Shown here: positions 674 through 27,715 of the stretch, piece after piece
How positions within the stretch are numbered: the first letter of the stretch is position 1
Layout: the number at the start of each line of letters is the position of its first letter
Source of the DNA: Psammoneis japonica
Taxonomy: Eukaryota
Direction: 5' to 3'
Length of the DNA: 34,000 bases
NCBI GenBank assembly: GCA_008632985.1
Contig: QPGO01000072.1
Location: 372,001-406,000 of the forward strand
The notes under the pieces: model-generated
Seen by the model: the letters and a program-made list of their open reading frames with translations, nothing else
The model's database searches: none
What the model was told of the DNA's origin: nothing
Program-made: the position numbers and the translations under genes

Positions 674-1064
674 GGCAGGCACTGGCAGTCATCATCGTCT
701 GCGCAAATGTCGTGATGCCACGCACCACATTTCTTTGTGCACTGGAGCTCGTGCTGATTCTGTGCAATGCAATGTAAAATGCATGTCATGCTGTGCATGA
801 AAAAAGCATGCCAGTGATTGATTCATGGCTCCCAATTGTGACGAACTCATTTCTCATGCACTCAGAAGGAGCCTTGTTGGAACGCCGCTTCCAATCAATT
901 TTCACTTGTGGTGTGTCACATGCGCCCCTGTGCCCAGTGGTGTTCAATGCCATGCTGTGTCAACAAAAATGTTTGGGGAGCATTGGAAAAACAGTGGTGG
1001 CATTTGGGATCAAAATGCCACATTCACGCCACATTCAGTGCAAATGTGGCATTTGCACGGACAA

Positions 1065-1470
1065 CCGACCAACTGCAAGGGACGGGTTCCAGCCCTGCTG
1101 GGTGGGACTCCATGTGACATTGGGCCATAGAATTCCACGTGCGAGCTCTGCAGCAAATTTGTTGAGCAATGGAAATGTGTGATCGCCAACAGAAAAAGAG
1201 GCAATTTTACGAATGCATCTCCTCTTTACACTTGGAGTGCATCATTGACAGTTTTCCCGGGCACATTCTGCAGACATTAAAGAACACACCCAGCGCATTT
1301 TCACTCTCATAAATGTTGAAAATGGCAAAGCCTTTGGCTTCACAAAACAGGGAGCATGAAACAATTTTGGAGAATGCAGCACGTAGAAATGTGCATGTGC
1401 GACATCCGACGCGATCCAAAAAACTGTTGATGTCACAGTGCAGCAGTGCGAGGTCCCACCTGGAGAGCTG
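1065..1470 (+). repeat. ~400-bp direct repeat, copy 1
   Basis: Aligns with 3335-3740 (shared ggtgggactc..tgtgacattggg, cacttggagtgcatcattgacagttt, tgtcacagtgcagcagtgcgaggtcccacctggag). Confidence 0.9.
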
Positions 1471-3334
1471 GAACGCGTCAAGGACCAAAAAACCGTGTCT
1501 GCCCCCTCTGCTTTTTGGTGTCTTTGTAAAAGTTGATTTTGTTTCCAAAATCAATGGGTCATTCACCATGCGGTGCTTCTTGCATCTTCTGCCATTGTCA
1601 ATTGACATGTTTTCATGCCTGTGTTCACCAGAGTCATGGCTCTGAATGCCACAACTGGTGTCGCAAGAGGGGGCTTTTTTGCTCCAAGAGGACAGACCGG
1701 TCATCAGTGGAATTCTATGTGGAAATGCACCGAGAAATTTCCAAAGTTGTTTTTGCTCATTTGTGTCCATTGTCTCTTGCAATGGCAGCATGGCAAATCC
1801 ACAGCACACACTCATGTCAAATTGTGTGGGCCCACAAGCTGTGATTGATTGCTGTTTTGCTTTGTCTGGCTCTCCCCTTTTTGTGTTGTCTCTTGACTTG
1901 AAAAAGCGGCACAGATTCAAAATTGTGCCCATGAGTTTTAAAAATGTTTTGGTCATTTGTGGCTGGATGTGTGAATGATGTCACAAATGGAAGCATCTGG
2001 TGGACTCCTTCTGTCGGTCGTCTGCAAAGAGAGTCATGCTGCCAGAGGCAACTTTGTGTTTTCTGTGCTGCGCTGTGGTTGGCAGGAAGAAGTGGCTTCT
2101 TCTGTGTCACCAGCAGAGTCTTCAGAATCACTGAAAGAGGGGCCTGATGCTTGTTCCTCTGTGCCGCCGTTCGTGAACCAAGTCGCAAGGGAGTTGTCAT
2201 GGCGCTTGGGAGATTTCTCCATCTGCTGTTGTTGTTGTTGCATTTTGGTCTGCGCAAATCCCTGCGCTAATTTCCCCCTGTCAAATTTTGACAAAAAACA
2301 GTGAGCAGAAGTTGACAGGGCAAAATTCCCACAGAAGTCTTGCAGAAAGGACAAAAACATTGCAACGGAAGTTGCTTCATGCAACAGACTTAGTGGATTT
2401 GTGGGTGTGGGAATTCACCCTCTGTCGACATTTGCTCGTCGGACTTCGCCAAAGCAAGAACAAGTTGACTGCCAGAAAATTTGTGCAGAGCTGTCACAGA
2501 GAGGACAAACAAATTGCAAGACAAGTTGCTTTGCTCAACGGACCAAGTGGATTTATGGTCGCCTCACTCTTTGCATTGCCCTGACAACCAAGCATGTGAA
2601 CATCAACGTGAAAACATCAAATGCCAAAAATTCATTGACATTTTCAAAAAATTGCTGAACGGAAATGTTTGGGGTGACAATCAAATGCAACTGCAAAGAT
2701 TTGCACAAAACAATGCAGGACTGGCATGGCTGTTGTTGTGCATGAGTCAGAACATGAAAAACAAATGACTTTGGTCATGGGGCAATGATCATGTGCAGGC
2801 CAAATAAAAACATGGAACACAAACAAAAAAGGTCAACTGCCAATGAGCGAGCATGCATGATTTCAATCAGCAAGAATGTGACGATGCAACAGATCTGAGA
2901 GCACACTCACTGGGTCAAAGCGCCAAATGATGCCCTGTGACTGATGCACTCTTTTGTGCCTCTCTGATGTTGTGTGTGCAGGTGTTTGTCACTGGTCATC
3001 ATTCATCATGACACATGGTGCAACTTCTTGTTGTCAAAAAATTGACAAAACGCAGCATGACACAGTGTTAAAAATGTTAAGACAATTGCAGAACAAAGGG
3101 GCAAAGGCACGACAATTTGATTTTTCAGGATTTTCCACTGTGCGAGAAACGTGCAGTGCGCTGCGCACCTCGTCGCCAATGATCGGCGACGTGACGGTGG
3201 TGCATTGTCGCAATGACAGCGATGACAGTGATGTGTCCCAGAGTCTTTTGTCATTGTGGACATTTAGTTTGTTGTGTTTGAGAATGCACTCAGTCATGAA
3301 AGTCCCCGTGAGCAACCTCCATTGAAGCGCAAAA

Positions 3335-3740
3335 CGTCATGCCAACAAGGAGATGGGTTCCAGTCCCAGGTGGGACTCCGTGTGACATTGGGCCCACAGA
3401 ATTCTATGTGCAAACTCCACAGCAAATTTGTGCTGTGATGAAAATGCAAATGATCGCCAACAGACAAAGAGGCAATTTTACGAACGCATCTCCTCCTTCA
3501 CACTTGGAGTGCATCATTGACAGTTTGCCCGGGTGTGTTCTGCAGACATTAAAGAATGTGCCCAGCGTGTTTTTGTTCTCACGAATGTTGAAAATAGAAA
3601 GCCTTTGGCTTCGCAAAATGGGGAGCATGAAACAATTTTGTAGAACACAACACGTAGAAATGCACATGCGTGACATGCGACGAGATCCAAAAAACTGTCA
3701 TGTCACAGTGCAGCAGTGCGAGGTCCCACCTGGAGCTGGG
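3335..3740 (+). repeat. ~400-bp direct repeat, copy 2
   Basis: Aligns with 1065-1470. Many differences are CA-vs-TG swaps (ggcacattc/ggtgtgttc, gaacacaccc/gaatgtgccc). Confidence 0.9.
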
Positions 3741-4271
3741 TTGCATCAGGAGCTCTGTTTTTCGACCGTCCTTTCATGCACTTGATTGTCGAACGATTGA
3801 GAGTTTGTCCGGGGGACTTTCTTTGCACATGTGTGTTCTTCATGGTGCAATTGATTGATGCATTGAGTGCCTGTCACAAAGTGTCGTCCTCTGTCAGCGT
3901 CTGAAAATTGTCACTGTCATCGTCGGCGTCGACGGCAATTTGTCGCGCAAATCGCAAAAAATGCACGACTGTCGTCTGTCTGACATTGCGCTGCTGTGCG
4001 CTTGTTGTGTTCATGCCTTAAATGATGAAGACAATTGATGAACGAAAATCTCTGTAAAATTTCAGATGATGCATTTTTTTAGAAAATGGCATTTTTTAGA
4101 AAATGGCGATGTGCCATTTTTGGCCCCCGATTGCACTGTGATGCAACGTTCTTTTGTCCCGCTGTTTTCACTAAGATCTCTGTTGAAGTTCTGTCTGAAG
4201 TTGGTAGATTGGGTTTGCATGGCAAACAATGGGAAGTCACTCATGGAGTTGCTTTACAAAGTTTGCTCTTG

Positions 4272-5770: not shown

Positions 5771-8700
5771 CTAGAATGGATCGATTGGGCACTTTCCAGA
5801 TCCCGTACACTTGTATTTTTGTCCCGTGAAGTATCCATTATTGTTCAAGCAACTTTCCTCTTTCATCATTCTACAGTCGCCACTCATCCAACAGCAAGCA
5901 CCTCTACTGTTGGGTTTAATTGGAGCCGCTGGATCCGCTGCACACTTCACATCACGGCATCTCGACCCCAAACCCAAAAAGGTGCCACCTTTCTTGCTGC
6001 AGAATTTGCGCTGGGAAAGCTTACAATTTCCGCTTGTCATGCAACACGCACCATAGGCTATCGGACAAGTCTTATAGGTGCATTTTGCGTTCGGAACAAA
6101 GTCTCCTCCTTGTCGTTCGCAATTATTTCCCATGATATTCTTGCAAACGGCAGCTTTTTCCAAACAACATGAACCTTGCACGTTTGGAAAGTTGGGCGGA
6201 GGGTCAGTGGGTTTCGAAGCGAGTGGGCACGTGCCATCACTGTTGCATGCAACGTTGTCACCCATGTATGTATCCCGTCTGCTTTCGCAAATGCGAAAGC
6301 TTCGCATTCTGCATTGGCCGTTGGAAGTGCAACACGCGCCTTTTACAACGGGCTTCTCGGTAGGAAGTGAGCTTAAGTCCGCTACGGGGCATGATTTGTC
6401 CGAGTTGCAGCTTTGGCCTATTACGGAAACGCCTCCTCGGTTCTTGCATTTCCCTTTTGTGTAATCATTGCAAAAGCCGTTCTTAAAGCAGCATGCGTGG
6501 CGGACAAAGGCAGGTGCTGCGGTTGGACTCGGAGTCTTGGGTGGGGCGCACCACTGGGTATCTCTGCAGTTTGTATCGGCTTGGAAAGGATGCCCATTGT
6601 CAAGACACGTCTTTTGGGGAAGGTTGACGCAAACCTTTCCTCCGATACAACACGCCCCATATTCATCTGCTCCGCTGTCTGGGGGAGGCCTAGCAACGAC
6701 ATTGGAAGGTGCCGCCGTGGTGGGAGCCAGTGTAGGCGCCATTGTTGGGCTTCTCGTCGGACAAACACCGGGGTCTTGACAAGTTGTACCAAAACCCATG
6801 AACTCGCCATCGCAATTGAATGGTCTCCTTGGTCTGCAGGAAGAAAATCCGTTGCTCTCCATGCAGCTAAGAGAGAAAAGAGAGGTGAGAAACCTTATCG
6901 AATTCTCATAACGTTACAAACACGAGAACGACACTAGCCTTACCATGCACCGTTTGTCGGACAAACGTTTGCTGAGCATTGGACTAGATGACCAACGAAA
7001 TCGCCATCGCAATCTGCAGGAGGCACAAATTGGCACCCAAGCAATGTGCAACATGCACCGGGCCTCTGGTCTGTGATGGTGGGACTCTGTGTGGGCGAAG
7101 TTGTTGGCGATCGAGTTGGCGCTGCGGTTGGTAACGAGCACTCAGCTTGATTGCAGAGCTGATGAAAGCCGTTCCAACTTCCGCCCTCATCGTAGCAAAC
7201 GTCCTGACGTGTGAAATTTGAGCAGGTATTGTCAGGTCGACAGCAACTGCCGGGACAGCCACCGCAGTTGGTATCCGGGCCGAGCCACAGCCCTGTCGTG
7301 CAATCTGCATTCGTCGTCACCTCGCAAGAATCCGGCGCTAGCTTGCAACATCCACCGAGGGGTTGCTGTGGACATTCAGTGCAGTTTGAGGAGCCGTCCT
7401 GCCAACTCCCTTCAAGATCTACGGTACACTCTTGTTCCGTAGTGTTCTCTCTGCAGATTCCGAATCCGTTAAGCGTTCCACAGCATGGCGCCATTGGTAT
7501 TGGCAACAGAACGAGTGGCGCCTCTGTAGGTCCTTGTGTTGGATTCATCGTAGGTGAAGTTGTTGGAGCTTTTGTAGGTGACTTTGAAGGACTCTGCGTA
7601 GGAGCCCCTGTCGGGTTTGTAGTAGGAGCTCGCGTCGGTGACGACGTCGGAGGTTGCGGGCATTGAGTAGTAGCGCAAGTCGAGTTGCCATCACTCCACT
7701 CGCCCCCTAATTCGTCGCACTGGCTTTCGGCAACAATGTCTCTACAGCCGCCATCTGGTAGACAACACGTGCCAGCCTGTGTCGTGGTACGAAATAGTTA
7801 GATATACACGGAAAGCAACAGCATTGCAATCAGATTAGTAAGTGAGCATTATACGTACCGGCGGACAAGCAAAAGGACAACTTTCTCCCCGTGCCCAAAA
7901 TCCATTTTGTAAGAAATTTAGACAATCGGACCTTGTTCTTTCGACACAGGCACCGCTTCCTGAATACGTCAACGAACAACATGCCGATATTAGCTCTGCC
8001 TCTGCCGTTGGACTCTCAGTGGGGGACCGAGTTGGTCCTGGCGTCGGACTCTCAGTAGGACTGCGCGTTGGTCCCATTGTTGGACTCTTCGTCGGAGCCC
8101 GCGTTGGGGACGTTGTGGGGGTGCGTGTTGGGCTACGCGTGGGCGCAGCCGTAGGTGCTGAACATTGAGCTTCAGCGCACACACTGTTGAAACCGTTCCA
8201 CTTCCCTGTCATAATACTGCACACGTCCTCTGGTACGAACTCTTCGCAGCTTCCGTCAGGAAGGCAGCAACTGCCTGGACAGCCACCGCAGTTTCTGTCC
8301 GGACCGAGCCACAATCCAGTGCACTCTGAAGGGGTGGTTACATCGCAGGAATCCGGATCAAGCGTGCAACAGCCACCGGTAGGGGGCGGCGGGCATTCAT
8401 TGCAATTGAGGGCACCACCTTGCCAGGTCCCTTGAAGGTACACGATGCATACTTCCTCTGAAGTAGCCTCTCTGCAGTCTGAAAATCCCCCAAATGTTCC
8501 GCAGCATGGCGCAAGAACTTGCGTTGGACTACCAGTGGGAGGATCGGTAGCTTCGTCTAGCGCTATAGTAGATGTTGGAGCCGGTGTTGCGAGTAAAATT
8601 GTAGGCTCAGCCGTAGTAGGCGTCGCAGTGGGAGACGTCGTTGGCGCCATGGTAGTAGGACCTGATGTCGGGCCCGAAGTAGGCGATTTAGTCGGTGTCG

Positions 8701-9298
8701 ACGTCGTTGGAGCCTCCGTCTCGACAGTGGGAGAAGTCGTTGGCGCCATGGTTGGAGATGCAGTAGGTCCTCCGGTAATTGCCGCCATAGGGGCTGATGT
8801 CGGATTTGCGGTTGTCGGTGCCATCGTAGGTTGATTAGTCGTAGGAACCATAGTGGGGGGCGATGTCGGATTTGCGGTTGTTGGTGCCATCGTAGGTTGA
8901 TTAGTCGCAGGAGCCATAGTTGGGGCCGATGTTGGATTTGCGGTTGTTGGTGCCATCGAAGGTTGATTAGTCGTAGGAGCCATAGTAGGGGCCGATGTTG
9001 GATTTGCGGTTGTTGGTGCCATCGTAGGTTGATTAGTCGTAGGAGCCATAGTAGGGGTCGATGTCGGATTTGCGGTTGTTGGGGATACAGTTGGTCCTCT
9101 GGTAGGCTCAGCCGTAGTAGGAGCTGATGTCGGATTTGCGGTTGTTGGCATCATTGTTGGTCCTTTAGTAGGTTCAGCCGTAGTGGGGGATACAGTCGGT
9201 CCTGCGGTAGGTTCGGTAGTAGCAGGTATCGGCGTGCTATTCCCTAGCGAAGCCAAGAAAGCAAGAAGGAGAAACTCTCCTACGATGGCGATCTTCAT
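5771..9298 (-). CDS. Secreted mucin-like Pro/Thr-rich protein with multiple Cys-rich GACC-type repeats (~1122 aa; exons 9298-7859, 7776-6944, 6866-5771)
   Basis: Signal peptide MKIAIVGEFLLLAFLASLGNS. Introns GTACGT..CAG (7858-7777) and GTAAGG..TAG (6943-6867) join three ORF segments in frame and rebuild a GACC motif across intron 2. PTxAPT linkers alternate with G[AS]CC-x-C-x-C-x-GG-x-C modules. Confidence 0.88.
8782..9085 (-). repeat. Coding minisatellite, 66-bp unit x ~4.5 (PTMAPTTNQPTMAPTTANPTSA)
   Basis: ccatcg[t/a]aggttgattagtcg recurs at 8821, 8887, 8953 and 9019. Confidence 0.9.
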
Positions 9299-10599
9299 GG
9301 TTTTCCAAAAAAAAATCGATGTCAAAGGAGTGACGATGTCAAAGGAGTAATGATCAATCAATTTGTTTACCCATGGGCAATCGACTTCATTTTTGTGATG
9401 GTAACGAGGAACAAGAATTCGTCTGGAAAAAATGAGTGGGTTTGTTGATTTTGGATCATCAGCCAAATCCTTTCTGTCCATAAGTAGGGTGTGACGTTTG
9501 CTGAACTCTTTTTATTATGCCCTTATATAAATCTTGTTAAATAGTCTTTGTCTCCCCGTTTTGCGGGCAATTATCGTTGCTCAACATAAGATTGGATCGC
9601 GGATGTGCAGGGAATCGGCGTTTCCCCTCACACTTGACATTCTGTGTTCTCTATGCGGATGTTTGCTTGTCTACTCTAGCTAGCTAGTCTTCGTTCGTCG
9701 ATCTATTTTGCAGACGCCTGAAGCCATCCACAATGTTGGATCTGTGCTTTTTCCGCAATCAGTGTTGAAAGCGTTTCTGTGGCTTGCATCTCAACTTCCT
9801 GCTCCACCCCAGCAAATCAAAATGTCGCAACGAGGAGGAAAGGCGCTTTTTGGGGACCACTCTCTTGAATGTCTTGCACCTTGAAAATGCCATCACAGAG
9901 CTCCACTTGGATGGAATTTAATGGAGGCAGAGCTCATTTCATCGACACTGTTCATGTCACCAAGAAGTTGGCATTTTCGTTCCCAGGGGGGGGGGTTGCC
10001 AAAATCTGACTTTGTCAAGGTGCAATCATGTCATTTCCTTCTGGAGCTTGTAGATGCTGATTGACTGGGTTCACTTTGGTGGTTCACATGCAAGCTCCAG
10101 GGCTTGCTGTTTTTCAATTTCATGAGGAATCTGGCCTGTTTTTCTCATGCCAGGACTGGCAATTTGACGACAATTTGAAGCGACCAACGGGTGAGAAGTT
10201 TTCTCGATTCAAAATCCCAGCCCTGTTTTGCAATGTGGATTTGACAGCTGCATCAGAAAATGCTGATGTCAACATTGGAAAGCTCTGTTCCCATTTTGAC
10301 TGGACAATTTGGCGGGATTTCACGTGATTGCAGTGCCCAGCAAAGACGTTGTTCTGGAACGTGACTCCATTCACCAATTTCAAAGGCAGGTTGGGAACAA
10401 ATTGTGTGCTGTCCTTGGAAAAGACAACAGCATTGAGCGAGTCTGGGCAAAGCCAAATTGTGTCAATGGAGTGCATTTGTCTTGTGCAAAGAGTGCGAGT
10501 GTGAAAAAGCAGAACAAAGGTAAAAACATGATCATTGCCAGTTTAGTGTGCATGCACAAGAGCCCATTGTTCCACCTGCACAAAGCTCTTTGCTGATGT

Positions 10600-11220
10600 T
10601 TGGGCTCGTCATGACCATTTGCATCAGATTCATCATCATTTGCATCACACAAGGGGAAGCAAGGACATCACATGATCTTCCTCTGACCAGCCAATGAAGC
10701 GCTTTAGGACACAAGATGCAAAGTCAACAGCATGTTTCTTGGACTCTGGCAAGTTGAATGAAAAGCTCATGGCTGCCAACTTGGTCAAGTCAGGTTCCAA
10801 ATTTCTCACACCAAACATGGATTTTCCCTTTGCTGCTTGGCTGAAGCAGCTTGCAAGTGAATGATTGCACACAGTGAGGCCATCAATGAACTGGTGTTCC
10901 TCGCACTTTGGCAGTGCTTCTGTCATGTCCTCAATGTCAAGTGCGACAGCCGATGCTGGCTTGAGCAGCTGCAGCATTTTCTCCCAGACATTGGGCTCAA
11001 CATCAGGGAAGGAGACACGTCTCTCTCCCTTTTCCCTCCTTTCAAAATTGGTTGGTGTGGAGAGTGACGTGTTCATGGATTGTGATGGTGCACCTTTTGG
11101 TCTTTTCCCACAACAACCTCCACAACCTGGGCATCAGGAAAGAACCTTGTGCACCGACTGATGAATCCACCTGGGTCCGAGGCTGCAGAGGCCGGTCGTT
11201 CCATTGCTTCATCAGTCATG
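10600..11220 (-). pseudogene. Decayed BTB/POZ-domain gene
   Basis: PDAQVVEVVVGKDQKVHHHN...ERRVSFPDVEPNVWEKMLQLL...EEHQF resembles a BTB core, split over frames. His/Cys appear where Tyr would be expected. Confidence 0.55.
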
Positions 11221-11399
11221 GTGGTGTTTGCTTTGGGTGGTTTTGCAGGTTGTGGGTTGTGAGGGGTGAGGGCTTGTTTCTTGGTCCATGGTGCCCTCCT
11301 TCTTTCATTCTTCAAAGATTGTGAAGACAGCAGACCTCACAGCTTGAAGCTAAAAATTCATGTGACATCTGTCTTTCAGTGTGAGGGACGACAGTCAAT

Positions 11400-11930
11400 G
11401 CTCAGGGTTCAAGAAAAAAGCAACAAGCTTCAAAGATTTTAGTTCTCAACTTTTCTCATTGAGTCCTTCATTGCTGCACCCGGCATCAGATGCACAACTG
11501 AAACCAGCTTGAGTGGGAGGGGATGCAATTTCAGCCCCACAGAACAGAGCAATGCACTCATCCCATGTGCGCCGCTCTCGACCATTTTTCATGGCAACCA
11601 TGTTGATGTCCATTTTCACTTTAACTGCTTCCATGCTGGAACTGACAGAAGTGCCAAGAAATGCACTCTGCACAGAAAAACGTGCTTCCATTTTTTGCCA
11701 CACTGATGTTGCCAAGGGTGGTGTTGCACTCACTGCCAGACCAGTCATGCAAAACGTGCTTGAGGAAAAAGACATCACACTGTTCCATGACTTCTTTCAG
11801 AAAGCTTGCAAAGAAATCTCCACCAATGGCACTCATTTGATCCAACAGATCGTGCCCCACAAAGTGCTCTTTTGCCTTCTTTTTGGCAATGTGCGGCAAG
11901 TCAAAAAGCAGTCCCTTCATGTTGGGACCC
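11400..11930 (-). pseudogene. Hypermutated 3' fragment of the O-methyltransferase gene plus its 3' flank
   Basis: PNMKGLLFDLP..GGDFF..CDVFFLKHVLHDWS..KVKMDINMV..ERRTWDECIALF aligns with 16450-17000; frameshifted. Confidence 0.93.
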
Positions 11931-11944
11931 AAATGTGTTGCTGA

Positions 11945-13950
11945 CTGTGCCCAGCGGGTGGCTCCATCTTTTGTTGTGCCAAAGCAAGACCTGATGGTCT
12001 GGTCCACATTGACAATTCCACAGATGAGCTCAACAAATGGATCAAGCAAGTGCCATGATGTGCAGCCCATCATGTCCAAGACACATGCTGCCTCATTTTC
12101 CTGTGGGGAAAGTGCAAGATGCAGGTGTTGCCTGCGGGGCTGCACAGCTTTCAACATGGACACATTTCAGAAGAAAATGGTGTCAACCTGAATTGAGGAT
12201 TCAGTGCTCATTCAAATGTGCTCAGATCACCTTCTGTGTGTGACAAAGGGCACCTGTGAAGAACCCTTGAGAAATTCAAACTTGTCTCATTGCAAATGCA
12301 GAAGGCAGGGCTGAAAACCAGCCAGACTGTTCGGGCTGTTTGGTCAACTGCAGTGGTGAACAGCTGACATCTGCCAAAGTCAAAGTCATCAAGTGGATTG
12401 CCAAGCTGAAAAAAATGATGTGTGGCTGCAATGTTCTGAAATTTTGTCACCCCTTGCATGTGGCTTGCAAGCAGGGCTGTCCAATGGGAGTGAGTGTTTG
12501 CTGAAGATGAGGCACTTGAAACTGTCAAACAAGCATTGTTTGGCATGTCTTGTTGGCACATCCAAACTTCAACAAACCCATTTGAGGTGCACACCAAAGC
12601 CTCTGTAAACATCAACATGGAGCAGCAACATGTCAAAACAATGAGCCTGTTGCATTTTGCAGCAGAAAGCTCAACAGTGTGCAATTGAATCATGCAACAA
12701 TGGCGGAGAGAGAAAATCACTTGCCATTGTGAAGAAATTGAAAGAAGTTCAGATGGCTCTCCTGGTCAGTGCATGATGGCATGTGTTGGCCACAAAAATC
12801 TCATTTGCAAGGCACTCAATGCCAAACACATGGTGCGCTGGAGGTTGACACATGCAAAGGACAGCACATGACCCCCAGTTGCTGGCACCACACTGAGTTG
12901 CCTCTGACCAGCCCCCAGCTTGCTTTCCGAGTGCAATCTGGAGGTTGTTGTGATGCCAAACAGTTGTCATCTGCTGTGCAAAGCTTTCAATGTGAACACA
13001 GCACAGGTGCTGTTGCTTGCTGTTGGCTTCAAGTGCATCTCAATGGAGCAACAGCAGGAAAAGCACCCCCAGCTTCATGTGCAAAGGACTTGTCCAACTG
13101 CTCCGTCCATGCAGTTTGTGAGGGAGAGTCATCATGGCAGTTGGTGCACTGCACAAAAACAAAATTGTTGTGCCCCAGGGGTCATTGCAAACTCCCTTGA
13201 CTGAGCAGCACCTTGAGCAGCTGTGTTGTCCAGGTGTGAGATGTGCACAGAAATGTCCTCTGCCCAGCACTCCTGTTGGCACAATGTGAGGGCTGCAGTG
13301 CACTGTGTGTGCATTGAGTGTGGCCAATGTCAGAAGCCAAAACACAGGACCCAACATTGTGGAAACAAAGTGCCAGAAAAGATGGCAGAGACAGCCCCAT
13401 GGGGGGAAACCCTTTGCATGGACATGATTTGACCCTGCAAAATTCAGAGACACAAAAAAGACACTCTGCAATCACAGGTGCCAGCCACAATGATCAACTC
13501 AGATGGTTTGAGGTTGAAGCAGAGTCTGCAAAATGTGTGGACATTGCAGCGAGCATCTCAGATCAAACTTGGCTGTTCAAGCATCCATGGCCAGCCAAGG
13601 TTGTTTCTGACCATGGGACTGAATTTTGGCCAGACAATTCAGAGTGACTGTGACACATCATTGTCAAGAAAAAACCAAAGCAAAAAATCCACAGGGGCAA
13701 ATGTGCCACAGGAGCAGAGTGAGGAGTGCATCAGACACACCCAGCAATGTGGCACATTCATTTTCAACACAGCTGCTGTGGCCTTTGCCATGCTCCTGTG
13801 GCACACGCAGCCATGTGGGCAAGCCCTGCACAGCTGTTCTTTGGACATGATGCGAGCTTGTCTGTTGCTCATTGTGCGCCAAGTGCAAGCACATGGTGGA
13901 AGACAGAGAAAGCAGAGGCTTCTTGCCCACTTTTGAACAGAAGAGAAAGC
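11945..13950 (+). mobile_element. Degenerate Ty3/gypsy LTR-retrotransposon pol (RT - RNase H - integrase order)
   Basis: RT remnants APSFVVPKQD (~11961), ELNKWIKQ, DTFQKKM, QKAGLK. RNase H LAHPNFNKP/FEVHTKAS (~12555-12604). Integrase CGQCQK..VPEKMAETAPWGETLCMDMI, HPWPAKVVSDHGTEF, KNPQ, VHQT, AVAFAM, ASPAQLFFGHD. No LTRs recognised. Confidence 0.85.
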
Positions 13951-14248
13951 ATGAAGGAGGTGCATGATGGAAAGAGTGCCAGCACACTGTTGGGCAGTTG
14001 GCTCTTGTCAAACAAGAACAAAAGTCAAAATGTGGGATGTGGGGCTGACAACACAGCACACCACCCAGTGTGTCACTCCAGACTCAACCAAATGAACCAA
14101 AATCATCGACAGGTTTTTTTGATTCGTGCATTGTGCATTTGTGCTTGGATCTGTGCGGTGTTCTGTCAAGATCCATCTGTGATGCACAACTCAATCACTG
14201 CCGTCTGCGGCACACAAAGAAGATCAAAAAGCACACATCCTTGGATCC

Positions 14249-16178
14249 ATGTCAACCTTTTCTGCCCTGAAGAAAAATGGGTGCAAGGCCAAACCCAAGT
14301 CGGCTTTTGACAAAATTCCAAAGACGAATGAGACTGCCGACACTCTCAAGGATGTAATTCTTCTGCACGCGGAATTTGGCATGAGGCTCCATGCCATCAA
14401 TGTGCTTTGGACTCCTCTCGAAGAAAGTCTTCCGCTCTCGAGCAAGAAGGTGTGTGATGTGTCGGCTGACCAAGATCCCTCAAGTCAAGATGACGACCTT
14501 GACGCGGCCCGCCCTCCAGATGGGATTCTCTTGCCAATGTGGCGTCGCTGTCACATGGGAATCATCCTTGAAGCCAGCAATGACTCATGCTCCGGTGATG
14601 CCCAACTGAACATTGCCGTTGAGTTGTTCAATGATGGAATCCACACCCCTGCTCATTTTTCACGAGCTCCAATTTGCGCAGAAGCCACACATTGGTTTCT
14701 GTGCATTTGTGCAGATTTTGTGCCAATCGCATCACAGAGGTGTGTTGTTCGCCAGCCCTGACGATCTCTTTCTCAGTCACAACACATTTTTCACGATGGC
14801 CGGCACATGACGCCAGCTCGGTGGACACGTTTCGAGTTCTTTTCATGTGGATCTTGCTGCAGACATGCAGCACTCAGATTCATTTCGGCGCGCAGTTTTG
14901 TTGCAGATGGCACAGAAACCCGTGGCAGTTCCCTGCTTGTGCACAGAAACGCGTGGCGAGGTCCTGAGCATTTTCGATGGCACAGAGCCTTGCCACGGGT
15001 TTCTGTGCCATCTGCGACAAAACTGCGTAGATTTGTGCCGAAATGAATCTGAGCACTGTGTGTCTGCGGTGAGATCTGCATGAAAAGAACTCGAAACGTG
15101 TCCACCGAGCCGGCGTCATGTGCCGGCCGTCATGAAAAACACATCATGACTGAGAAAGAGTTCGTCAGGGCCGGCGAACAACACACCTCTACGATGCGAT
15201 TGGTGCAAAATCTGCGTAAATGCACAGAAACCAACGTGTGGCTTCTGTGCAAATTGGAGCTCGTGAAAAATGAGCAGGGATGTGGAGCACCTCTTTGGTG
15301 CTGGCTCAAAAACGAAGGTCATTCAAATGCTTCGCAGTCACTGTGGTGATGATCACAAGGCATTTTCTGCCGGAGTTGAGCGTGACATTGATGTTGAGCT
15401 GAAGTTGTCATCAGAAGTTGTCGATTCGTTCAGGCGTTCAGCGTGCTCTTTGGCAGGTTTCAACTGTCGGCACTTCACTGCTGTTGTGTTTTACAACTTT
15501 ACAGGACAGTTTCTCCGTGACTCATTGCATCGAAGGTGGACATCCAGTCACAACGGATGGGGATTCTCAGCCAAGAATAAATCATCTCACCCTTGCATGG
15601 AGTGGGCCGACGGTTCGAATCTTCTCAAGGAAGAGCTGGAACCTGTGGAGGGGGAACCACTCCTTTTCAGTCGCTCACCGTGTGGATTTGGCAAGGTCAC
15701 CAAAGCAGCTGCTGAAGTTGGCATTTTTCTGGCCAAATCAAAACTCCCTGCTGCAAAAATCGCTGGCCTCGTGGTTGTTGGTGGTTCTGTGTTGGTTGAC
15801 AAGGTCCCCCAAATCCGACGCTTCGCGAGGTCAACCGCATGGTACAAGTGCGACCCAGATCTCGAAACTTGGTACTGGACTCCGTACCGTGATGGCGAAC
15901 TGGACAATCCAAGCCACAGGTGGATCTCCGTACATCAATTAGAGGTCCCTCATGGCCGTTTCCAAGGACAGACATTGGAAAATACCAACAAACGAATTGT
16001 CCGCATCTTAGCCGACGATGTCTTTGATCCTACGGAACGCGATCAAGACGATTGTCCTATCTGCTTGAATCCGAAGCCAATGAGGAGATTCGTTTCTTGC
16101 AGATGCTGTGACAGTGCCATTTGCATGGATTGCTTTCCCCGAATGGACCTCTGCCCCTTCTGCCGCACGGCCTACTGA
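14249..16178 (+). pseudogene. C-terminal RING-finger protein gene (copy A), interrupted by a MITE, with a hypermutated 5' half
   Basis: MSTFSALKKNG...FNDGIH [insert] EHLFGAGSK... is in frame once the insert is removed. Ends CPICLN..CRCCDSAICMDC..LCPFCRTAY. Paralog at 20197-21448. Confidence 0.8.
14646..15280. mobile_element. ~635-bp foldback/MITE with ~280-bp inverted arms
   Basis: 14647-14927 is the reverse complement of ~14991-15279 (CCCTGCTCATTTTTCACGAGCTCCAATTTG...). Absent from the paralog, where the empty site reads ggaatccacatggagcacc (~20594-20612). Flanks CA / TG fit a mutated TA (or ATAT) target duplication. Confidence 0.93.
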
Positions 16179-16537
16179 ACTACCATACCGTGCTGCCACT
16201 CTGACATTTCTCACTGTTATCTTCGTAATTGCATTCTTGTTCTACGTACGATACTTACCACTGTATATTCGGTGTCCACTGATATCGACCTGATATTTAT
16301 TAGAAAGTGGCCACATATATATTCTGTTGTCAATCGTCCTTGTGTGCGCCATAGAGTGACTTCTGAGTAGCTGTTGAAGCTTCTGAAAAATCCTTGTCTT
16401 TGAGAATCAAGGGATAACTAACAGAGAGAAGTAGTAGATGAATGTGCACAGGTTCAATGATACAACCAGCTTCACAGTTTTTAGTTCTCAACTTTTTCAC
16501 TGACTCAAAAAAATTGCTCCGATTGAATCCTCCATTG

Positions 16538-17797
16538 CTATAACTTGAGATGCACAATCGAAACCAGCTCTCGAGTAGGAATTAGAGTGGGAGGGGATTT
16601 AATTCCAGCCCTGTGGAACAGAGCAATGTATTCATCCCATGTACGCTCTCGACCGTTTGTCATGACAACCATGTTGATGTCCATTTTTACCTTCACCACT
16701 TCCATACTGGAACTGGTAGAAGCGCCGAGAATAAAGTCAGCGCCAACGATTGTGCTTCCTTTTCTCGCCACGCTCTTGACATTTTTAAGGATGGTGTCAC
16801 ACTCACTGTCCGACCAGTCGTGCAAAATGTGCTTGAGGAAAAAGACGTCACATTGTTCCATGACTTTTGGAAGGCTCGTGAAGAAATCTCCACCAACGGT
16901 TTGAATTCGATCCGACAGATGGTGTTGCGCAAAATGCTCTTTTGCTTTTTTCGCAATGTTTGGCAAGTCAAAAAGCAGTCCCTTCATGTTGGGATAGTGG
17001 GATGCCACAGCAGCCAACAAGGTCCCTTCTCCGCCGCCAATGTCACAAACGGTTGCATCGGGGAAGGGCAAGGCCCAATCACTCAGTATGAATTCTGCCG
17101 TTTCCCTCGTAGAATCCACCATGGCTTTGTCAAAAATGGCGGCAATTTCCTCATTATCAGGTGACTGAAGATATTCAAAGAATTCCATACCCGTGGATTC
17201 CTTCATCCCGGTTTTACCCGTAACTAGTGATTGTTCTCCAGCCACGCTCCACGCCTTTTGAAACGTGAAGTGACCAAAGAGAAGGCACCAGTTGTGGAGG
17301 CCATTCGGATGATTCTTACGCAACAGCGCGCCGGTGGCAGTTTCTCGATACTTTGTAACTTGAACTTTGGTAGTCGCGTCTGTTGTCGTTGATACTTGAA
17401 GCAATCCCAGTGAGACCCCGGCACGCATATAACGACATGTATAATCGACATTCAACTCGAGTTGCTCTGCAACTTTGCTGCATACCCGTGCTTTGCCTCC
17501 AAGCGCATCCATAATGCCACTCTTGACGATTGCAAAAAGAATCTCAGAATCCCAAAAGCCTGAAGCGAGGTTTCGTATTTGAACAGATGGAGGCGTCACA
17601 GCGCGAAGAGTTGCCGCCAAGGCATCACTCACGGCGATTGCCACTCGAAATACAGGCCAAGGAGGAATGTCGACTGAAAATGAATTGTTGCTTGGAATAA
17701 CTGGGGGGGTAATGCCAGAGGGTGATGAGGCAACGAGGTAGCCAACCCCAAAGGCGACAATCGCAACGATTCCACAAGTAAGCACGTTGATGAGCAT
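16538..17797 (-). CDS. Class II SAM-dependent O-methyltransferase (COMT/ASMT-like) with an N-terminal hydrophobic anchor
   Basis: Motifs VCDIGGGEG, LFDLP, GGDFF, LKHILHDWSD, NGRERT; dimerisation-type N-domain. Likely ATG at 17797 (MLINVLTCGIVAIVAFGVGYL). Confidence 0.92.
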   Translation of the reverse strand: MLINVLTCGIVAIVAFGVGYLVASSPSGITPPVIPSNNSFSVDIPPWPVFRVAIAVSDALAATLRAVTPPSVQIRNLASGFWDSEILFAIVKSGIMDALGGKARVCSKVAEQLELNVDYTCRYMRAGVSLGLLQVSTTTDATTKVQVTKYRETATGALLRKNHPNGLHNWCLLFGHFTFQKAWSVAGEQSLVTGKTGMKESTGMEFFEYLQSPDNEEIAAIFDKAMVDSTRETAEFILSDWALPFPDATVCDIGGGEGTLLAAVASHYPNMKGLLFDLPNIAKKAKEHFAQHHLSDRIQTVGGDFFTSLPKVMEQCDVFFLKHILHDWSDSECDTILKNVKSVARKGSTIVGADFILGASTSSSMEVVKVKMDINMVVMTNGRERTWDEYIALFHRAGIKSPPTLIPTRELVSIVHLKL

Positions 17798-18159
17798 TGT
17801 CAATAATGAGCTCTCTGAGACGACTCTATGAGGCGGAGCGGCGGCGATCGCGACGCCATTTTGTGTTATGTAGAAGTAGATGGATGATTCTTCATATGTA
17901 CCTGCTGTTTGAGATGAAGATGATTCGCACTGCGTCGTCGCGCGAAAAGATATTTTCGAAAGATTCAGCACGATGCTGCGGCGCACTTCACACTTCACCA
18001 CTTATCACGAACGAAAGAATGAATCAAAGGTGTAGGGCGGGCCCAAGCCCTTTATGCATGATGCATATTAATACCCTCTGAAGACTGAAGACCTCATCGA
18101 TGAGGGATGGGCATTCTTATTATTTATTATCAATAACGAGAGCTCAGTAGTTCTAAGGC

Positions 18160-19985: not shown

Positions 19986-21800
19986 CCAGACTCAAGCGAC
20001 TAAACCAACGACCAGAGCGATGTTGTTTCATTCGTGCTTCGATCTGTGCGGCGTTCTATCAACTTTCAATCTAAATGATGCATAACTTAATCTCTGCCGT
20101 CTACGGTACACAAAGAATAGCCTCTCTTCCTCTCCTCAAGAATTCTGAAGCTTAGTGGGGCCACTGGTGTAGTTCGAAAAGCACATCCTTGGGTCCATGT
20201 CAACCTTTTCTGTCCGTAAGAAAAATGGGTGCAAGCCCAAACCCAAATCAGCATTTGACGAAATTCCGGAAACGAATGAGACTGCCGACGCTCTAAAGGA
20301 TGTGATTCTTCCGTATACGGAATTTGGCACGAGGTTCCGCGCCGTTAATGTGTTTTGGACTCCTCTTGGACAAAGCCTTCCGCTCTCGAGCAAGAAGGGG
20401 TACACAAGTATGATGTGTCGGTCGATCAATATCCCTCAAGTCAAGATGACGACCTTGACGCCGGCCGTCCTCCAGACGGGGTTCTCTTGCCAATGTATGA
20501 CGTCGCTGTCACATGGGAATCATCCTCGAAGCCAGCAATGACTCGTGCTCCGATAATGCCCAACTGAACATTGCCATTGAGTTTTTCAATGATGGAATCC
20601 ACATGGAGCACCTCTTTGGTGTTGGCTCAAAAACGAAGGTTATTCAAAGGCGCCGTAGACACTAAGGCGATGAGCACAAGGTATTTGCTGCCGGAGTTAA
20701 GAGTGACATTGATGATGAGCTGAAGATGTTATCAGAAGTTGTCCATTCGTTCAGGCTTTCAGCGGACTCCTTAACAGGTTTCAACTGTCGGCACTTAACC
20801 ACTATTGTGTTTTACCGCTTTATAGGACAGCATGTCCTTGACTTATTGCATCGAAGGCGGACGTCTAGCCACAACGGATGGGGATTCTCAACCAAAAAAG
20901 AATCATCTCACCCTTCTATGGAGTGGGCCGATTGTTCGAATCTTCTCAAGGAAGAGATGGAAACTGTGAATGGGGAACCACTCCTTTTCAGTCGCTCACC
21001 GTGTGGATTTGGCAAGGCCACCAAAGCAGCTGCTGGAGTTAGCGTCTTTTTGGCCAATGCAAAATACCCGGCTTCAAAAATCGCTGGCCTCGCGGTTATT
21101 GGTGGATCTTTGTTATGGTTGACAATGTCCCCAAAATTCAGACGTTTCGCGAGGTCAACGGTATGGTACAGGTTCGACCCAGATCGCGAAACTTGGTACT
21201 ACATAACGTGACGGCTAACTGGACGATCCTATCAACTCCATCCACAAATTGGAGGTCCCTCATGGCCGTTTCCAAGGACAGACATTGGAAAATACCAACA
21301 AACGAATTGTCCGATAAAGACGATTGTCCTATGCTTGAATCCAACACCAATGAGGAGGTTTAATTCTTGCAGATGCTGTGACAAGGCCATTTGCATGGAT
21401 TGCTTTCACCGGATGAACCTCTGCCCCTTCTGCCGCACGGCCTACTGAGAGTGCCATACAGTTTTGCCACTCTGAAGTTTCTAACTGCTATCACGATACT
21501 AAACATCCACTGTACATTCGGTGTCCATGTTAGAAATAGCCCAATAAAGATTTTATGTAGTCAATCGTCCTTGTGTGCACTTTCTAGTGACTTCTGCGTA
21601 GCTGTTGAAGCTTATGAAAGATCAGAGAGAAGTAGCAGACGGATGTGCTCAGGTCTACAGTAAGGATACAACGAGCTTCACGGTTTTTCGTTCGCAATTT
21701 TTTCACTGACTCAAAAATAATCTAGATTGAATCCTCCAGTGCTATTGAGATGCAAAACCGAAACCAGCTCTCGAGTGGGAATTACAGTGGAAGAGGATTT
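19986..21800 (+). repeat. Segmental duplicate of ~14078-16600 (RING gene, intergenic DNA, OMT 3' tip), lacking the MITE
   Basis: Homology runs from ccagactcaa (19986 / 14078) through the RING gene to the IPTRELVSVLHL / IPTRELVSIVHL OMT tail (~21745-21795 vs 16545-16595). Confidence 0.9.
20197..21448 (+). pseudogene. RING-finger gene copy B: frameshifts, stop and deletions, but TpA intact
   Basis: MSTFSVRKKNGCKPKPKSAF..., SRSPCGFGKATKAA, DDCP and a RING tail ending GCCTACTGA, spread over several frames. Confidence 0.85.
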
Positions 21801-25239: not shown

Positions 25240-27490
25240 GAGCAGAAAACGAAGCCAGCTCCCAAGAGATCCCTCATTCTTGTTCTGACAGCACCATGGG
25301 ACAGTGCAATCGAAGTGTCTGCAAGAAGATGCCAACACTAAAAAAGAAATTGTAGCTTCTTTCTTCTCTGCCAGCTTTTGGAAAATCCCCAGCAGCACGG
25401 CGCGGTGGTCTCGTTTTTTCTGCAGCACGACTCACATTGTTGGCGCTTTGCATTGCTGTGCCACACGGCACCATTTTTGGATGTTCCTTCCACAATTTTG
25501 TGTTGACCAAGTCATGTCAACTGATGCCAATCTCATTGGACAGGTTTTTCTGCTCTGGTCTCACTGTTGGGTCCTGGCGCGGGGACAGCGCACATCTGCA
25601 CTTTTGTTTTCATGGTGGCTCAAGGGCCCAATTGCCCAGTTGGCACCAATGGCAATGCTGCCCCTGGCACATCTGGCACCCCCCTGAAACTTGGGAATGT
25701 GCCACACAGGTGGCTGATCAACTTTGCTGTGGCACTTTCTGCATTTCTTCTGACTCTGACTGGCGTCAGCACCCCAGTTGACTGGACCCTTCTGCTCAAC
25801 TGGCCCTTGTTGAACCCAACTTCTCACTCAGCATGGGTTCAGGCTAAGGAAAAGGCCTGGATGATCCAGCACATGAGAACAGCAACTCAACAACCTTGGT
25901 GTCAGAGCAAAGGTGATGCAATGTTTGATCAGGCTGGTTTGTCGGTGTCAAAAACTTTGCAGGATTTGACACCCATGGCCTCTCCTGAACAACCACCCCT
26001 TCCCAAGTGGAGAATGTGGTTATGATGTCATGGTGATGCAATGTTCATGTCATGAATTTTTTTGTGTGTTGGCACGTCACTCAATTTTGCACTTGCACAC
26101 AAGTGCCAATGACAACAGGAAAAATCCTGAACCATGGGGGATGGGAGTTTTTACTCAACGAAACACACATGTTCACAAGAATGTGAACACATCCGACTCA
26201 ACGGATGTGATGATGTCATCACACATCACCCACACCCACATCCCATGGGACCACTTGCAAAGGGGTGCTGAACAACAATGATGCTTGCAGCAGATGATCT
26301 CCAACCTCTGACTGGCTGGTGTGATGTTGTCAAGCTGAAAATTAAAAAAGAAACAGCTGTGCAAGACCGCACCTGAAAAGGCTTTGTCAACCCCCACTCT
26401 TGTCAAAGATGAAATTGCAAGGGGCTCATTTTGTTTTCCCACTCAACCTCAGAAGCTGGTGCTGCACTGCTTGCCAAGTTGTTCTTGTCTGGCTCTGCAG
26501 GGGATGGCCAACCTTGGCAAGAAATGCAAAACATTGGCCAATCTTTGACAGCAGCATGGCACAACCAACAACCCCAGCAGCCAGCAGTCAGGTGGCATGG
26601 CAATCAATGACACTTTGGATCTTGCACACAAAAACAGGCTTTGTGGCTTGGGTGTGCAACACAAGGATGTCCAAACCATGGGAGGAGACGCACCTCTTGG
26701 CCATGACAACATGAGTGGTGCTTTCACCTGGAGAAACACAACATGATGAAACACCAGCACCTGAGCCTTGTGGGATTGCCACAAGTTCCCAACCCTTCTG
26801 CTCACCACGACCAGCACCTGGCACAATGTCTCCAGTTGGTCCAGAACACTGTGGAGCTGGCTCCTTTGCACACATTTGTGGGTTCCCACCTCCCAAGGAG
26901 TGCAGAGGAAAGATTCTTTGTTGGGAGGTTCCCTTTTTGCTCTGTGCTGAGTCAGAAGCAGCCAACAGCCCTGGGAGAGCTGCTTTCACATGTGCTTTCT
27001 CCTGCCTGCCTGCTGCTGCACAAAAACAGGCACAAAAGAAATGATGAGTTGGTCTCTGTTGCAGCAGGTGCTTTTTGCTCATTTGTTTTTTCTTTCATGC
27101 TGGGTTTTTCTAACGCACTGCCGCCACCGCTGCTGCTGCTGCCCACTGAGAGAAGACTCCAGATTTTCCAGCAAAGAGACTGGGTGCAAACTTGAGAGAT
27201 CTGGACAAACACTTTGCAAGTGGCTTGTTTTGGCCCTCTGCTGCTCATGGCATGCCGGTCATTGAAGCGCAGCTGCCCTGCAGCCACACAACTCTTTTAG
27301 AATCACTTTTGTTGCATCGCTGTCATTGGTTTCTTTTGCAGCCTTGAGCCAACAGCTCTTGTGTTGTTGCAGTCGACATTGCCACTGCGAGTGGAAGGCT
27401 TCTGTCAGAAAGATCCAAAATCGATCCAACAGACGCTCAAGAAGATCGAAATGGCCTCTCCCCTGAACAGGCTCGCAACTCAACTCCTTT
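25240..27490. other. TpA-depleted hypermutated domain 3 (unclassified decayed element)
   Basis: Only a handful of TA in ~2.2 kb, with strong TG/CA excess. Abrupt return to TA-rich sequence at 27501 (actatcgtacctgtactgtacagtat). Confidence 0.8.
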
Positions 27491-27715
27491 GCCATGACCG
27501 ACTATCGTACCTGTACTGTACAGTATGCCTTCTCTCCTCTCTCCCTCCTACGGTACTACCTTGGACCTCCGGTCAGGGGTGACTTTTACGAGGTCGAAAA
27601 GTGATAAAACCTCGAAGCAGAAGGCACAATGGCAGAGTCGGCGTCGGCGCAGTCAGAACCGGCGGCGAAACTGTGCACTGTGATTGAATGAGGTGGCTTA
27701 GCACTATACAAAACC

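What the first reader, a model, noticed from the sequence alone, without database searches (positions are those of the whole stretch)
15281..16178. Hypermutation spreads out of the MITE into the flanking gene and fades
Against paralog B, TA sites just right of the MITE are converted (ggttattc->ggtcattc, gtattt->gcattt, gttatcag->gtcatcag, gacttattg->gactcattg, ctattgtg->ctgttgtg). Beyond ~15840, TAs and Tyr codons persist (ggtacaag, ggtactgg, ccgtaccg, gcctactga). A gradient over a few hundred bp fits a spreading chromatin mark or a processive enzyme rather than a property of the sequence.
Basis: partly seen in the sequence, partly recalled or inferred. Interest (0 to 1): 0.78.

Follow-up and report, generated by a model that had tools for sequence, protein, structure and literature searches.

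The report
Sharp-edged TpA hypermutation domain
The stretch is the right-hand end of a 6-kb block of silent, repeat-bearing DNA in which almost every TA has been rewritten to CA or TG, a rare mutation signature so far reported in one alga; it ends in a step and is not shown to radiate from the small transposon.

Summary
Where paralog B has TA, copy A has CA or TG up to 15838, and TA persists from 15843 on. In A 14221-15842, 19 of 28 aligned B-TA sites are CA/TG and 2 are kept. In 15843-16600, 3 of 32 are CA/TG and 16 are kept (p=2.8e-6). The pattern is a step, not a fade, and it is not centred on the MITE. The left flank of the MITE is equally converted. The TA-free state runs 5 kb further left, so the domain is 9705-15842, with 16 TA against about 232 expected. 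Two more such domains lie in the window (776-4018 and 25354-27502). CpG is eroded too, most strongly at 12-14 kb. Comparing the MITE's own arms, a pair of LTR-like repeats and a second pseudogene (OMT-C) shows the changes arose in place and on both strands. The signature matches the TpA-only hypermutation found by mutation accumulation in Bigelowiella natans (bioRxiv 10.64898/2026.01.13.699255). This organism looks diatom-like and is not B. natans. My reading is domain-targeted TpA to CpA/TpG mutation of silenced repeat DNA plus 5mC decay. The enzyme is inferred, not shown.

The parts
9705..15842 (.). TA-free domain D2: 16 TA in 6138 bp (about 232 expected); O/E for TA 0.04, CG 0.37, CA 1.76, TG 1.74
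   Evidence: passes the preprint's 1-kb thresholds in 10001-15000
15283..15842 (+). The finding proper: the part of pseudogene copy A right of the MITE that lies inside D2; 15 of 19 B-TA sites are CA/TG and 2 are kept
15838..15843 (.). Right edge of D2: last converted TA site (15838) and first retained TA (15843)
15843..16178 (+). 3' third of copy A (RING-finger end), outside the domain: 6 of 11 B-TA sites kept; TA O/E 0.49
14646..15282 (.). Foldback/MITE-like element: arms 14629-14889 and 15037-15297 are 87% complementary; multi-copy in the genome; only 3 TA; arm differences are mostly TA- or CG-derived
14136..14645 (+). 5' part of copy A left of the MITE, inside D2: 0 of 9 B-TA sites kept; 12 of 27 B-CG sites are TG/CA
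20029..21800 (+). Paralog B: empty site for the MITE, itself a pseudogene with in-frame stops, background TA level (O/E 0.35-0.72)
11421..12166 (-). OMT-C, a decayed O-methyltransferase copy inside D2. Of the intact gene's 20 TA sites, 14 are CA/TG and 1 is kept. Of its 32 CG sites, 18 are TG/CA. A conserved Tyr (TAC) has become Cys (TGC)
16538..18001 (-). Intact O-methyltransferase gene, convergent with copy A, outside the domain
12167..14135 (.). Core of D2: TA O/E 0.00-0.01 and CG O/E 0.08-0.09; contains segments repeated elsewhere in the genome (depth peaks at 12074-12307 and 12542-12775); no recognisable protein family
776..4018 (.). TA-poor domain D1 (22 TA in 3243 bp) around LTR-like direct repeats 1076-1480 and 3346-3748, with TA-free flanks of 300 and 270 bp
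25354..27502 (.). TA-free domain D3 (6 TA in 2149 bp; CG O/E 0.24) between two divergent genes; sharp right edge at 27503

Best explanation
Positions 15283-15842 are the right-hand end of a 6.1-kb domain (9705-15842). In it, DNA of any origin has undergone in-place, strand-symmetric conversion of TpA to CpA or TpG: repeats, a foldback MITE and two host pseudogene copies alike. It has also undergone a slower CpG to TpG/CpA decay. The process is targeted to a region, most likely a silenced, cytosine-methylated repeat island, and not to a sequence family. It is effectively saturated for TpA and ends abruptly at 15838/15843 inside pseudogene A.

The signature is the one measured directly in Bigelowiella natans mutation-accumulation lines.

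Shown here: the dinucleotide specificity, the strand symmetry, the in-place origin, the domain extent and the step edge.

Inferred: that the chemical step is deamination of adenine in TpA on either strand (A to inosine, read as G) by a chromatin-directed DNA deaminase. I give that about 0.4 on its own. Also inferred: that the CpG loss is ordinary 5-methylcytosine deamination, and that the domain edge is a chromatin boundary.
For: (1) Three domains hold 44 TA in 11,530 bp (O/E 0.06), with CG O/E 0.40 and CA/TG O/E 1.73/1.76. Outside them the values are TA 0.57, CG 0.92 and CA/TG 1.20, with the same base composition.

(2) A against B. Inside the domain there are 22 single changes of type B-TA to A-CA/TG against 2 in reverse, and 19 B-CG to A-TG/CA against 4 in reverse. 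Outside it the counts are 6 v 6 and 4 v 4. CA (11) and TG (8) are both produced.

(3) OMT-C against the intact gene. Of 20 TA sites, 14 are CA/TG and 1 is kept. Of 32 CG sites, 18 are TG/CA. A Tyr that is Y/F in 6 of the 7 aligned homologues (P0004 has a gap there) is Cys (TGC) in OMT-C.

(4) Sequences that were once identical differ mainly at such sites. The MITE arms show 47 differences in 308 columns, 30 of them in CA/TG, TA/CA-TG or CG/CA-TG pairs. The LTR-like pair shows 75 in 427: 13 CA-v-TG pairs, 4 TA pairs and 11 CG pairs.

(5) Outgroup polarity: 4 clear and 2 weak sites show TA lost in A.

(6) Divergence not of TA or CG type is alike on both sides of the edge: 84 of 985 (8.5%) against 21 of 282 (7.4%).

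(7) A separately assembled contig set of the same organism agrees with the TA-free sequence: 10 differences in 2425 bp and 25 in 2177 bp. Of the 12 listed in-domain differences, 3 have TA where the window has CA/TG, and one is a TG/CA pair.

(8) By the preprint's criteria (rho TA at most 0.43 and rho CA+TG at least 1.52 per 1 kb), 10 of 34 windows pass here. In about 198 kb of related environmental loci, 1 borderline overlapping window passes.

(9) B. natans lines: 230 of 231 mutations in the hypermutable regions are A>G or T>C, all at TpA (Results read).
Against: No de novo rate, methylation or expression data exist for this organism, so 'silenced, methylated island' is inference.

Three of the 9 outgroup-informative nonsynonymous TA-type sites (2 clear, 1 weak) are gains of TA in B and not losses in A.

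For the non-paralogous bulk of the domains (9705-11420, 12167-14135, D3) an originally TA-poor composition cannot be excluded.

No viral or transposase protein family was recognised in the domains, so the 'foreign DNA' target seen in B. natans is not shown here.

Pseudogene B is also dead but is not mutated, so silence of a gene alone is not the trigger.

If the contig set in (7) comes from the reads used for the assembly, it is not independent.
Confidence: 0.75

Rival explanations
1. One reading: the MITE nucleates a mark or recruits a processive enzyme, and hypermutation spreads outwards from it for a few hundred bp and fades.
For: B lacks both the MITE and the mutation. The mutated flank right of the MITE is 560 bp. 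That is similar in scale to the TA-free 300 and 270 bp outside the LTR-like repeats of D1. The MITE is a multi-copy repeat with long inverted arms, a plausible silencing trigger.
Against: Conversion does not decline with distance: 11 of 14, then 4 of 5, then a step. The left flank is fully converted, and the TA-free state continues 5 kb to 9705. TA and CG depletion are deepest at 12-14 kb. D1 and D3 have no copy of this MITE.
Confidence: 0.12
2. The step at 15838/15843 is a recombination or gene-conversion junction. On this view the left part of A derives from a hypermutated paralog and the right part from an unmutated one, so no boundary of the mutation process lies here.
For: Three tandem copies of the RING-gene/OMT unit exist, which gives substrates for conversion. 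The edge is sharp, 5 bp between informative sites.
Against: A-B divergence at sites not of TA or CG type is the same on both sides: 8.5% of 985 against 7.4% of 282. The other domains also end sharply without any paralogy.
Confidence: 0.08
3. There is no loss in A. Either B gained TA by C-to-T changes at CpA/TpG (RIP-like), or the TA-free blocks are native low-TA sequence or a base-calling artefact at modified bases.
For: Two clear sites (15501, 15720) do show TA gained in B. The origin of most domain sequence is unknown.
Against: B's TA level equals that of all other genes in the window. A's own 3' end has background TA. OMT-C, the MITE arms and the LTR-like pair give the same asymmetry independently. 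Contigs from public runs reproduce the TA-free sequence.
Confidence: 0.04

Closest known systems
TpA-specific hypermutation of integrated viral regions in Bigelowiella natans (Mettrop et al., bioRxiv 10.64898/2026.01.13.699255; Results, Discussion and dinucleotide Methods read)
   Same: Only TpA is hit. The products are CpA and TpG, so both strands are affected. The process is confined to discrete blocks with TA depletion and CA+TG enrichment, and TE-type sequences are among the depleted ones. The window passes that paper's cluster criteria.
   Different: The organism here groups with diatoms, not chlorarachniophytes. The targets shown are a foldback MITE, LTR-like repeats and host pseudogenes, with no viral genes found. 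Depletion is near total (rho TA 0.00-0.13, against 0.45 for the B. natans NCLDV region). CpG is co-depleted, whereas that paper never mentions CpG. The edges are resolved to a few bp. No de novo rate has been measured here.
Repeat-induced point mutation (RIP) of ascomycete fungi, including leakage into adjacent single-copy DNA (leakage recalled, not read here; the RIP definition is as quoted)
   Same: A dinucleotide-specific, transition-only, regionally confined genome-defence-like mutation of repeats that can reach neighbouring genes.
   Different: The direction is opposite. RIP makes TpA from CpA, whereas here TpA is destroyed. Duplicated copy B and the duplicated 3' end of A escape, so duplication is not the criterion.
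CpG decay by 5-methylcytosine deamination in methylated transposons. Diatom TEs are methylated, and DNMT5a loss removes the methylation (PMC9998398, passages read)
   Same: CpG to TpG/CpA loss is confined to repeat-bearing blocks: CG O/E 0.08-0.45 against 0.92.
   Different: This explains only the CpG part. It is slower and more graded than the TpA loss.
ADAR / APOBEC editing of retroelement copies (as discussed in the preprint)
   Same: Clustered transitions, with a 5'-U/T preference for adenosine deamination.
   Different: Those leave a one-strand signature on a copied RNA or cDNA. Here CA and TG arise in equal numbers in resident DNA, including non-mobile pseudogenes.

Membership tests
TpA hypermutation, B. 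natans type | Changes are A:T to G:C transitions at TpA only | tested here: met
   In-domain asymmetry is 22 v 2 for TA to CA/TG. Other W-to-S against S-to-W transitions are 21 v 14. AA, AT and TT O/E are little changed. A separate CpG signal coexists.
TpA hypermutation, B. natans type | Both products (CpA and TpG), i.e. either strand | tested here: met
   CA 11 and TG 8 in A v B; CA 8 and TG 6 in OMT-C; CA 1223 and TG 1293 domain-wide.
TpA hypermutation, B. natans type | Confined to discrete genomic blocks (at least 3 consecutive 1-kb windows with rho TA at most 0.43 and rho CA+TG at least 1.52) | tested here: met
   1001-4000 and 10001-15000 pass; 25001-27000 gives 2 windows. The rho formula image was not held, so the standard observed/expected form was assumed.
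TpA hypermutation, B. natans type | Targets are integrated viral or other foreign sequences | tested here: inconclusive
   Multi-copy repeats are inside. No Pfam family and no viral-contig relative was found for the 3 ORFs tried. Host pseudogenes are also hit.
TpA hypermutation, B. natans type | Directly measured, about 1000-fold elevated de novo rate | not testable with these tools
   There is only a hint: 3 of the 12 listed in-domain differences between the window and run contigs are TA v CA/TG.
Fungal RIP | C-to-T at CpA, creating TpA, in all copies of duplicated DNA | tested here: not met
   TpA is removed, not created. Copy B and A's 3' end are duplicated yet unmutated.
5mC-driven CpG decay | CpG to TpG/CpA loss restricted to the marked region | tested here: met
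   19 v 4 in-domain against 4 v 4 outside; CG O/E 0.40 v 0.92. Methylation itself was not tested.
MITE / foldback transposon (the element at 14646-15282) | Short, non-coding, with terminal inverted repeats, multi-copy, and an empty site in a paralog | tested here: met
   637 bp; arms 261 nt at 87%; run-contig depth 293-2737 against about 55; B has the empty site.
MITE / foldback transposon (the element at 14646-15282) | Target-site duplication | tested here: inconclusive
   The flanks read CA...TG and B's empty site reads CATG. No clear duplication is seen.
RNA-level editing fixed by retro-copying (ADAR-like) | One-strand bias (A-to-G only on the copied strand) | tested here: not met
   CA and TG are equal. 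There are no long one-strand blocks in 300-bp bins. Run tests are not significant.

The most novel reading that the evidence does not exclude
A diatom-like alga runs a chromatin-domain-directed DNA mutator that erases TpA (to CpA/TpG) to near completion across silenced repeat islands. It is coupled in space to cytosine methylation, overruns neighbouring host genes by a few hundred bp, and stops at bp-sharp boundaries. That would make TpA hypermutation a RIP-like genome defence shared by, or convergent in, two distant SAR lineages (Rhizaria and stramenopiles), and not an oddity of one chlorarachniophyte. A bolder form: a single deaminase acts on both A (in TpA) and 5mC/C (in CpG).
Probability: 0.45. 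Interest if true: 0.8.

Novelty: new member of a known kind. Interest (0 to 1): 0.62.

Why it matters
TpA-only hypermutation has a single report in the held literature, a 2026 preprint on one chlorarachniophyte. This window suggests the same process in a diatom-like genome, at far higher saturation; about a third of 34 kb is affected.

It also adds points that the preprint could not resolve:
- the domain edges are sharp to a few bp;
- host pseudogenes and a MITE are swept in, so targeting is by place and not by sequence origin;
- CpG decay occupies the same domains, which points to methylated heterochromatin as the address.

There are practical consequences as well. Such blocks lose TAA and TAG stops and so show spurious long ORFs in all six frames. 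They also become unrecognisable to homology searches.

Tried and rejected
- The whole genome is not held, so no genome-wide distance profile or deaminase search was possible.
- Earlier-findings look-ups returned nothing.
- Pfam scans of 51 and then 27 domain ORFs found only the OMT fragment.
- Viral-contig scans with 3 of those ORFs found no relative.
- Purine/pyrimidine-recoded k-mer matching, low-stringency blastn and tblastx and recoded local alignment (scores no better than shuffles) found no hidden paralogy. They were tried for 9705-11420, 12167-14135, D1 and D3.
- Strand-coordinated clusters, a test for a processive one-strand enzyme, were not significant. Run tests gave p=0.08 (LTR-like pair, one run of 8), 0.37 (MITE arms) and 0.72 (A v B).
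- Resistance of the TAC context as the reason TAs survive beyond 15843 was rejected. Residual in-domain TAs are enriched in TTA/TAA, not TAC.
- Gene conversion as the cause of the step was rejected, because background divergence is equal on both sides.
- No RNA holder was listed for the stretch, so expression and the 3' end of the convergent OMT transcript could not be compared with the edge.
- Read laying listed only 40 of 313 variant places, so per-site comparison of MITE copies was not possible.
- Related environmental loci (22 loci, about 198 kb) showed 1 borderline window, L010 1251. This is useful as a control, but it is no evidence on relatives, because metagenome contigs under-represent repeats.

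Full report
WHAT IS AT THE COORDINATES

Copy A of a RING-finger gene is split by a 637-bp foldback element: 14136-14645, then the element at 14646-15282, then 15283-16178. The element's arms, 14629-14889 and 15037-15297, are 87% complementary. Paralog B (20029-21800) has the empty site. A third, decayed copy of the downstream O-methyltransferase gene (OMT-C, 11421-12166) lies to the left. B is itself a pseudogene with in-frame stops.

CHECKING THE OBSERVATION

I scored each TA of B that aligns without gaps to A:
- 15283-15560: 11 of 14 are CA or TG in A, and 2 are kept.
- 15561-15842: 4 of 5 are CA/TG, and 0 are kept.
- 15843-16178: 1 of 11 is CA/TG, and 6 are kept.
- 16179-16600: 2 of 21 are CA/TG, and 10 are kept.

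Pooled, 19 of 28 against 3 of 32 are converted (Fisher p=2.8e-6), and 2 of 28 against 16 of 32 are kept (p=4.8e-4). So the contrast is real.

It is not a fade. Conversion is as complete at 15838 as next to the MITE. The only two survivors (15492, 15500) lie near the MITE, and the first retained TA (15843) is 5 bp beyond the last converted one.

THE MITE IS NOT THE CENTRE

Left of the MITE, 0 of 9 B-TA sites survive. A 500-bp profile shows TA almost absent from about 9705 to 15842: 16 TA in 6138 bp against about 232 expected from the rest of the window. There are two further blocks, 776-4018 (22 TA) and 25354-27502 (6 TA).

Over the three blocks, the observed/expected ratios are TA 0.06, CG 0.40, CA 1.73 and TG 1.76. 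Outside them they are 0.57, 0.92, 1.20 and 1.20, with unchanged base composition. Depletion of both TA and CG is deepest at 12-14 kb (rho TA 0.00-0.01, rho CG 0.08-0.09), not at the MITE.

Run-contig depth shows that the MITE is multi-copy (293-2737 against a baseline near 55). Segments at 12074-12307 and 12542-12775 are multi-copy too. D2 is therefore a repeat island that also contains host pseudogenes.

THE CHANGES AROSE IN PLACE, ON BOTH STRANDS, AFFECTING TA AND CG

Single-site classification of A against B gives, inside the domain, 22 B-TA to A-CA/TG against 2 in reverse, and 19 B-CG to A-TG/CA against 4 in reverse. Outside it gives 6 v 6 and 4 v 4.

OMT-C against the intact gene gives the same picture. 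Of 20 TA sites, 14 are CA/TG and 1 is kept. Of 32 CG sites, 18 are TG/CA.

Sequences that should once have been identical differ mostly at such sites. The MITE arms show 47 differences in 308 columns: 8 CA-v-TG pairs, 2 TA pairs and 12 CG pairs. LTR-like direct repeats in D1 (1076-1480 and 3346-3748) show 75 in 427: 13 CA-v-TG pairs, 4 TA pairs and 11 CG pairs.

CA and TG arise about equally. That excludes one-strand RNA or cDNA editing.

POLARITY

A Tyr codon of the intact OMT is Cys (TGC) in OMT-C, at a position where 6 of the 7 aligned homologues have Y or F and P0004 has a gap.

For A and B, six homologues from a full-library search serve as outgroups. They show the B state ancestral at 15360, 15408, 15483 and 15837 (clear) and at 15378 and 15522 (weak). 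They show the A state ancestral at 15501 and 15720 (clear) and at 15777 (weak). Part of the A/B difference is therefore ordinary C-to-T gain of TA in B. The excess and the asymmetry are A-specific loss.

THE EDGE

Divergence not of TA or CG type is 8.5% (84 of 985) inside the domain and 7.4% (21 of 282) in the adjoining coding part outside it. A recombination junction between paralogs of different age is therefore unlikely.

D3's right edge is equally abrupt: no TA from 27299 to 27502, then five within 22 bp.

CpG decay in A does look graded away from the core: 12 of 27, then 3 of 13, then 2 of 13, then 2 of 13 outside. The counts are small. In D1, TA-free DNA extends 300 and 270 bp beyond the LTR-like repeats. 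A generalised 'repeat-nucleated domain that overruns its neighbours by a few hundred bp' therefore remains tenable. 'Out of this MITE, fading' does not.

WHAT IS KNOWN

Five full-text searches found one relevant paper: Mettrop et al., bioRxiv 10.64898/2026.01.13.699255. I read the abstract, Results, Discussion and dinucleotide Methods.

In B. natans mutation-accumulation lines, 231 of 302 nuclear mutations fall in two integrated viral regions. Of those, 230 are A>G or T>C, and all of these are at TpA. The rate is about 1000-fold above background. In addition, 124 TpA-depleted, CpA+TpG-enriched clusters exist genome-wide. The authors propose an ADAT2-like adenine deaminase.

By their cluster thresholds, 10 of 34 1-kb windows here pass. 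In about 198 kb of related environmental loci, 1 borderline overlapping window passes.

That paper does not mention CpG, boundaries or diatoms.

THE ORGANISM

None of the window's proteins is in the large protein collection. The best matches are 41%, 72% and 54% identical. For the DUF1736/TMTC-like gene, all 10 organism-named hits among the 120 listed are diatoms. The query nests among diatom sequences in a tree, on a long branch and without strong support. It is therefore not B. natans and is probably a diatom or a close relative. Diatom transposons are cytosine-methylated (PMC9998398, passages read), which fits the CpG decay.

MECHANISM

Shown: the process is regional, in place, strand-symmetric and specific to TpA, with a parallel CpG signal.

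Inferred:
- A DNA adenine deaminase acts at TpA, addressed by the chromatin of silenced repeats (about 0.4).
- Thymine modification that mispairs with G is an alternative chemistry.
- The CpG loss is 5mC deamination.
- The edge is a chromatin boundary, possibly set by the convergent OMT gene. This could not be tested, because no RNA holder is listed.

An artefact is unlikely. Contigs from public runs reproduce the TA-free sequence, with 10 differences in 2425 bp and 25 in 2177 bp. Of the 12 listed in-domain differences, 3 are TA in the run against CA/TG in the window. That also hints the process is still polymorphic.

VERDICT

The MITE-spread gradient is not supported. What is there is the step edge of a TpA-hypermutated, CpG-decayed repeat domain. 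It is a second, more extreme instance of a phenomenon known only from one recent preprint, in a different lineage.

Noticed in passing
window 12000-14200 (also 1200-3800 and 25300-27300): Inside the TA-free blocks, long ORFs open in all six frames, because only TGA stops remain. None matches a protein family. Gene finders would over-call here.
   Followed up: partly
window 776-1075 and 3749-4018: Zero TA in the 300 and 270 bp just outside the LTR-like repeats of D1 (about 11 and 10 expected). This is a possible overrun of the mutation into flanks, or the element may be larger than the repeats suggest.
   Followed up: partly
all three domains: The 44 surviving TAs are enriched for TTA/TAA contexts (symmetrised 3' A 0.48 against 0.20 outside) and poor in ATA/TAT. 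This may reflect a flanking-base preference of the mutator.
   Followed up: no
window 14640-14650 and 15278-15290; B 20598-20608: The MITE has no clear target-site duplication. The flanks read CA...TG and the empty site in B reads CATG.
   Followed up: partly
window 1262-1348: Eight consecutive CA-v-TG differences between the LTR-like repeats have the same orientation. That hints at strand-coordinated patches, but the run test is not significant (p=0.08).
   Followed up: yes
window 10085, 10685, 13045, 10915-10916: Contigs of public run X1 carry TA (or CA) where the window has CA/TG (or TG). These may be polymorphisms of the hypermutation between haplotypes or isolates.
   Followed up: partly
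window 8722-9249: Six copies of a 66-bp tandem unit lie inside a Pro/Thr-rich, Cys-motif ORF (7835-9511, minus strand). Two similar ORFs follow at 5771-7797.
   Followed up: no
window 29435-31414 (minus): A BiP-like Hsp70 gene reads as two abutting ORFs split at 30109/30110, by a stop, a frameshift or a short intron. It is only 65-72% identical to the best database hits.
   Followed up: no
window 15283-15971 (records 5 and 7): B-like contigs laid on A have about half the depth (about 28-29) of the main contigs (about 55-59). Copy B may be heterozygous or differ in copy number.
   Followed up: no
L010 1251-2250: The one borderline TA-poor, CA+TG-rich window (rho TA 0.35, rho CA+TG 1.56, rho CG 0.50) among 22 related environmental loci.
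   Followed up: no
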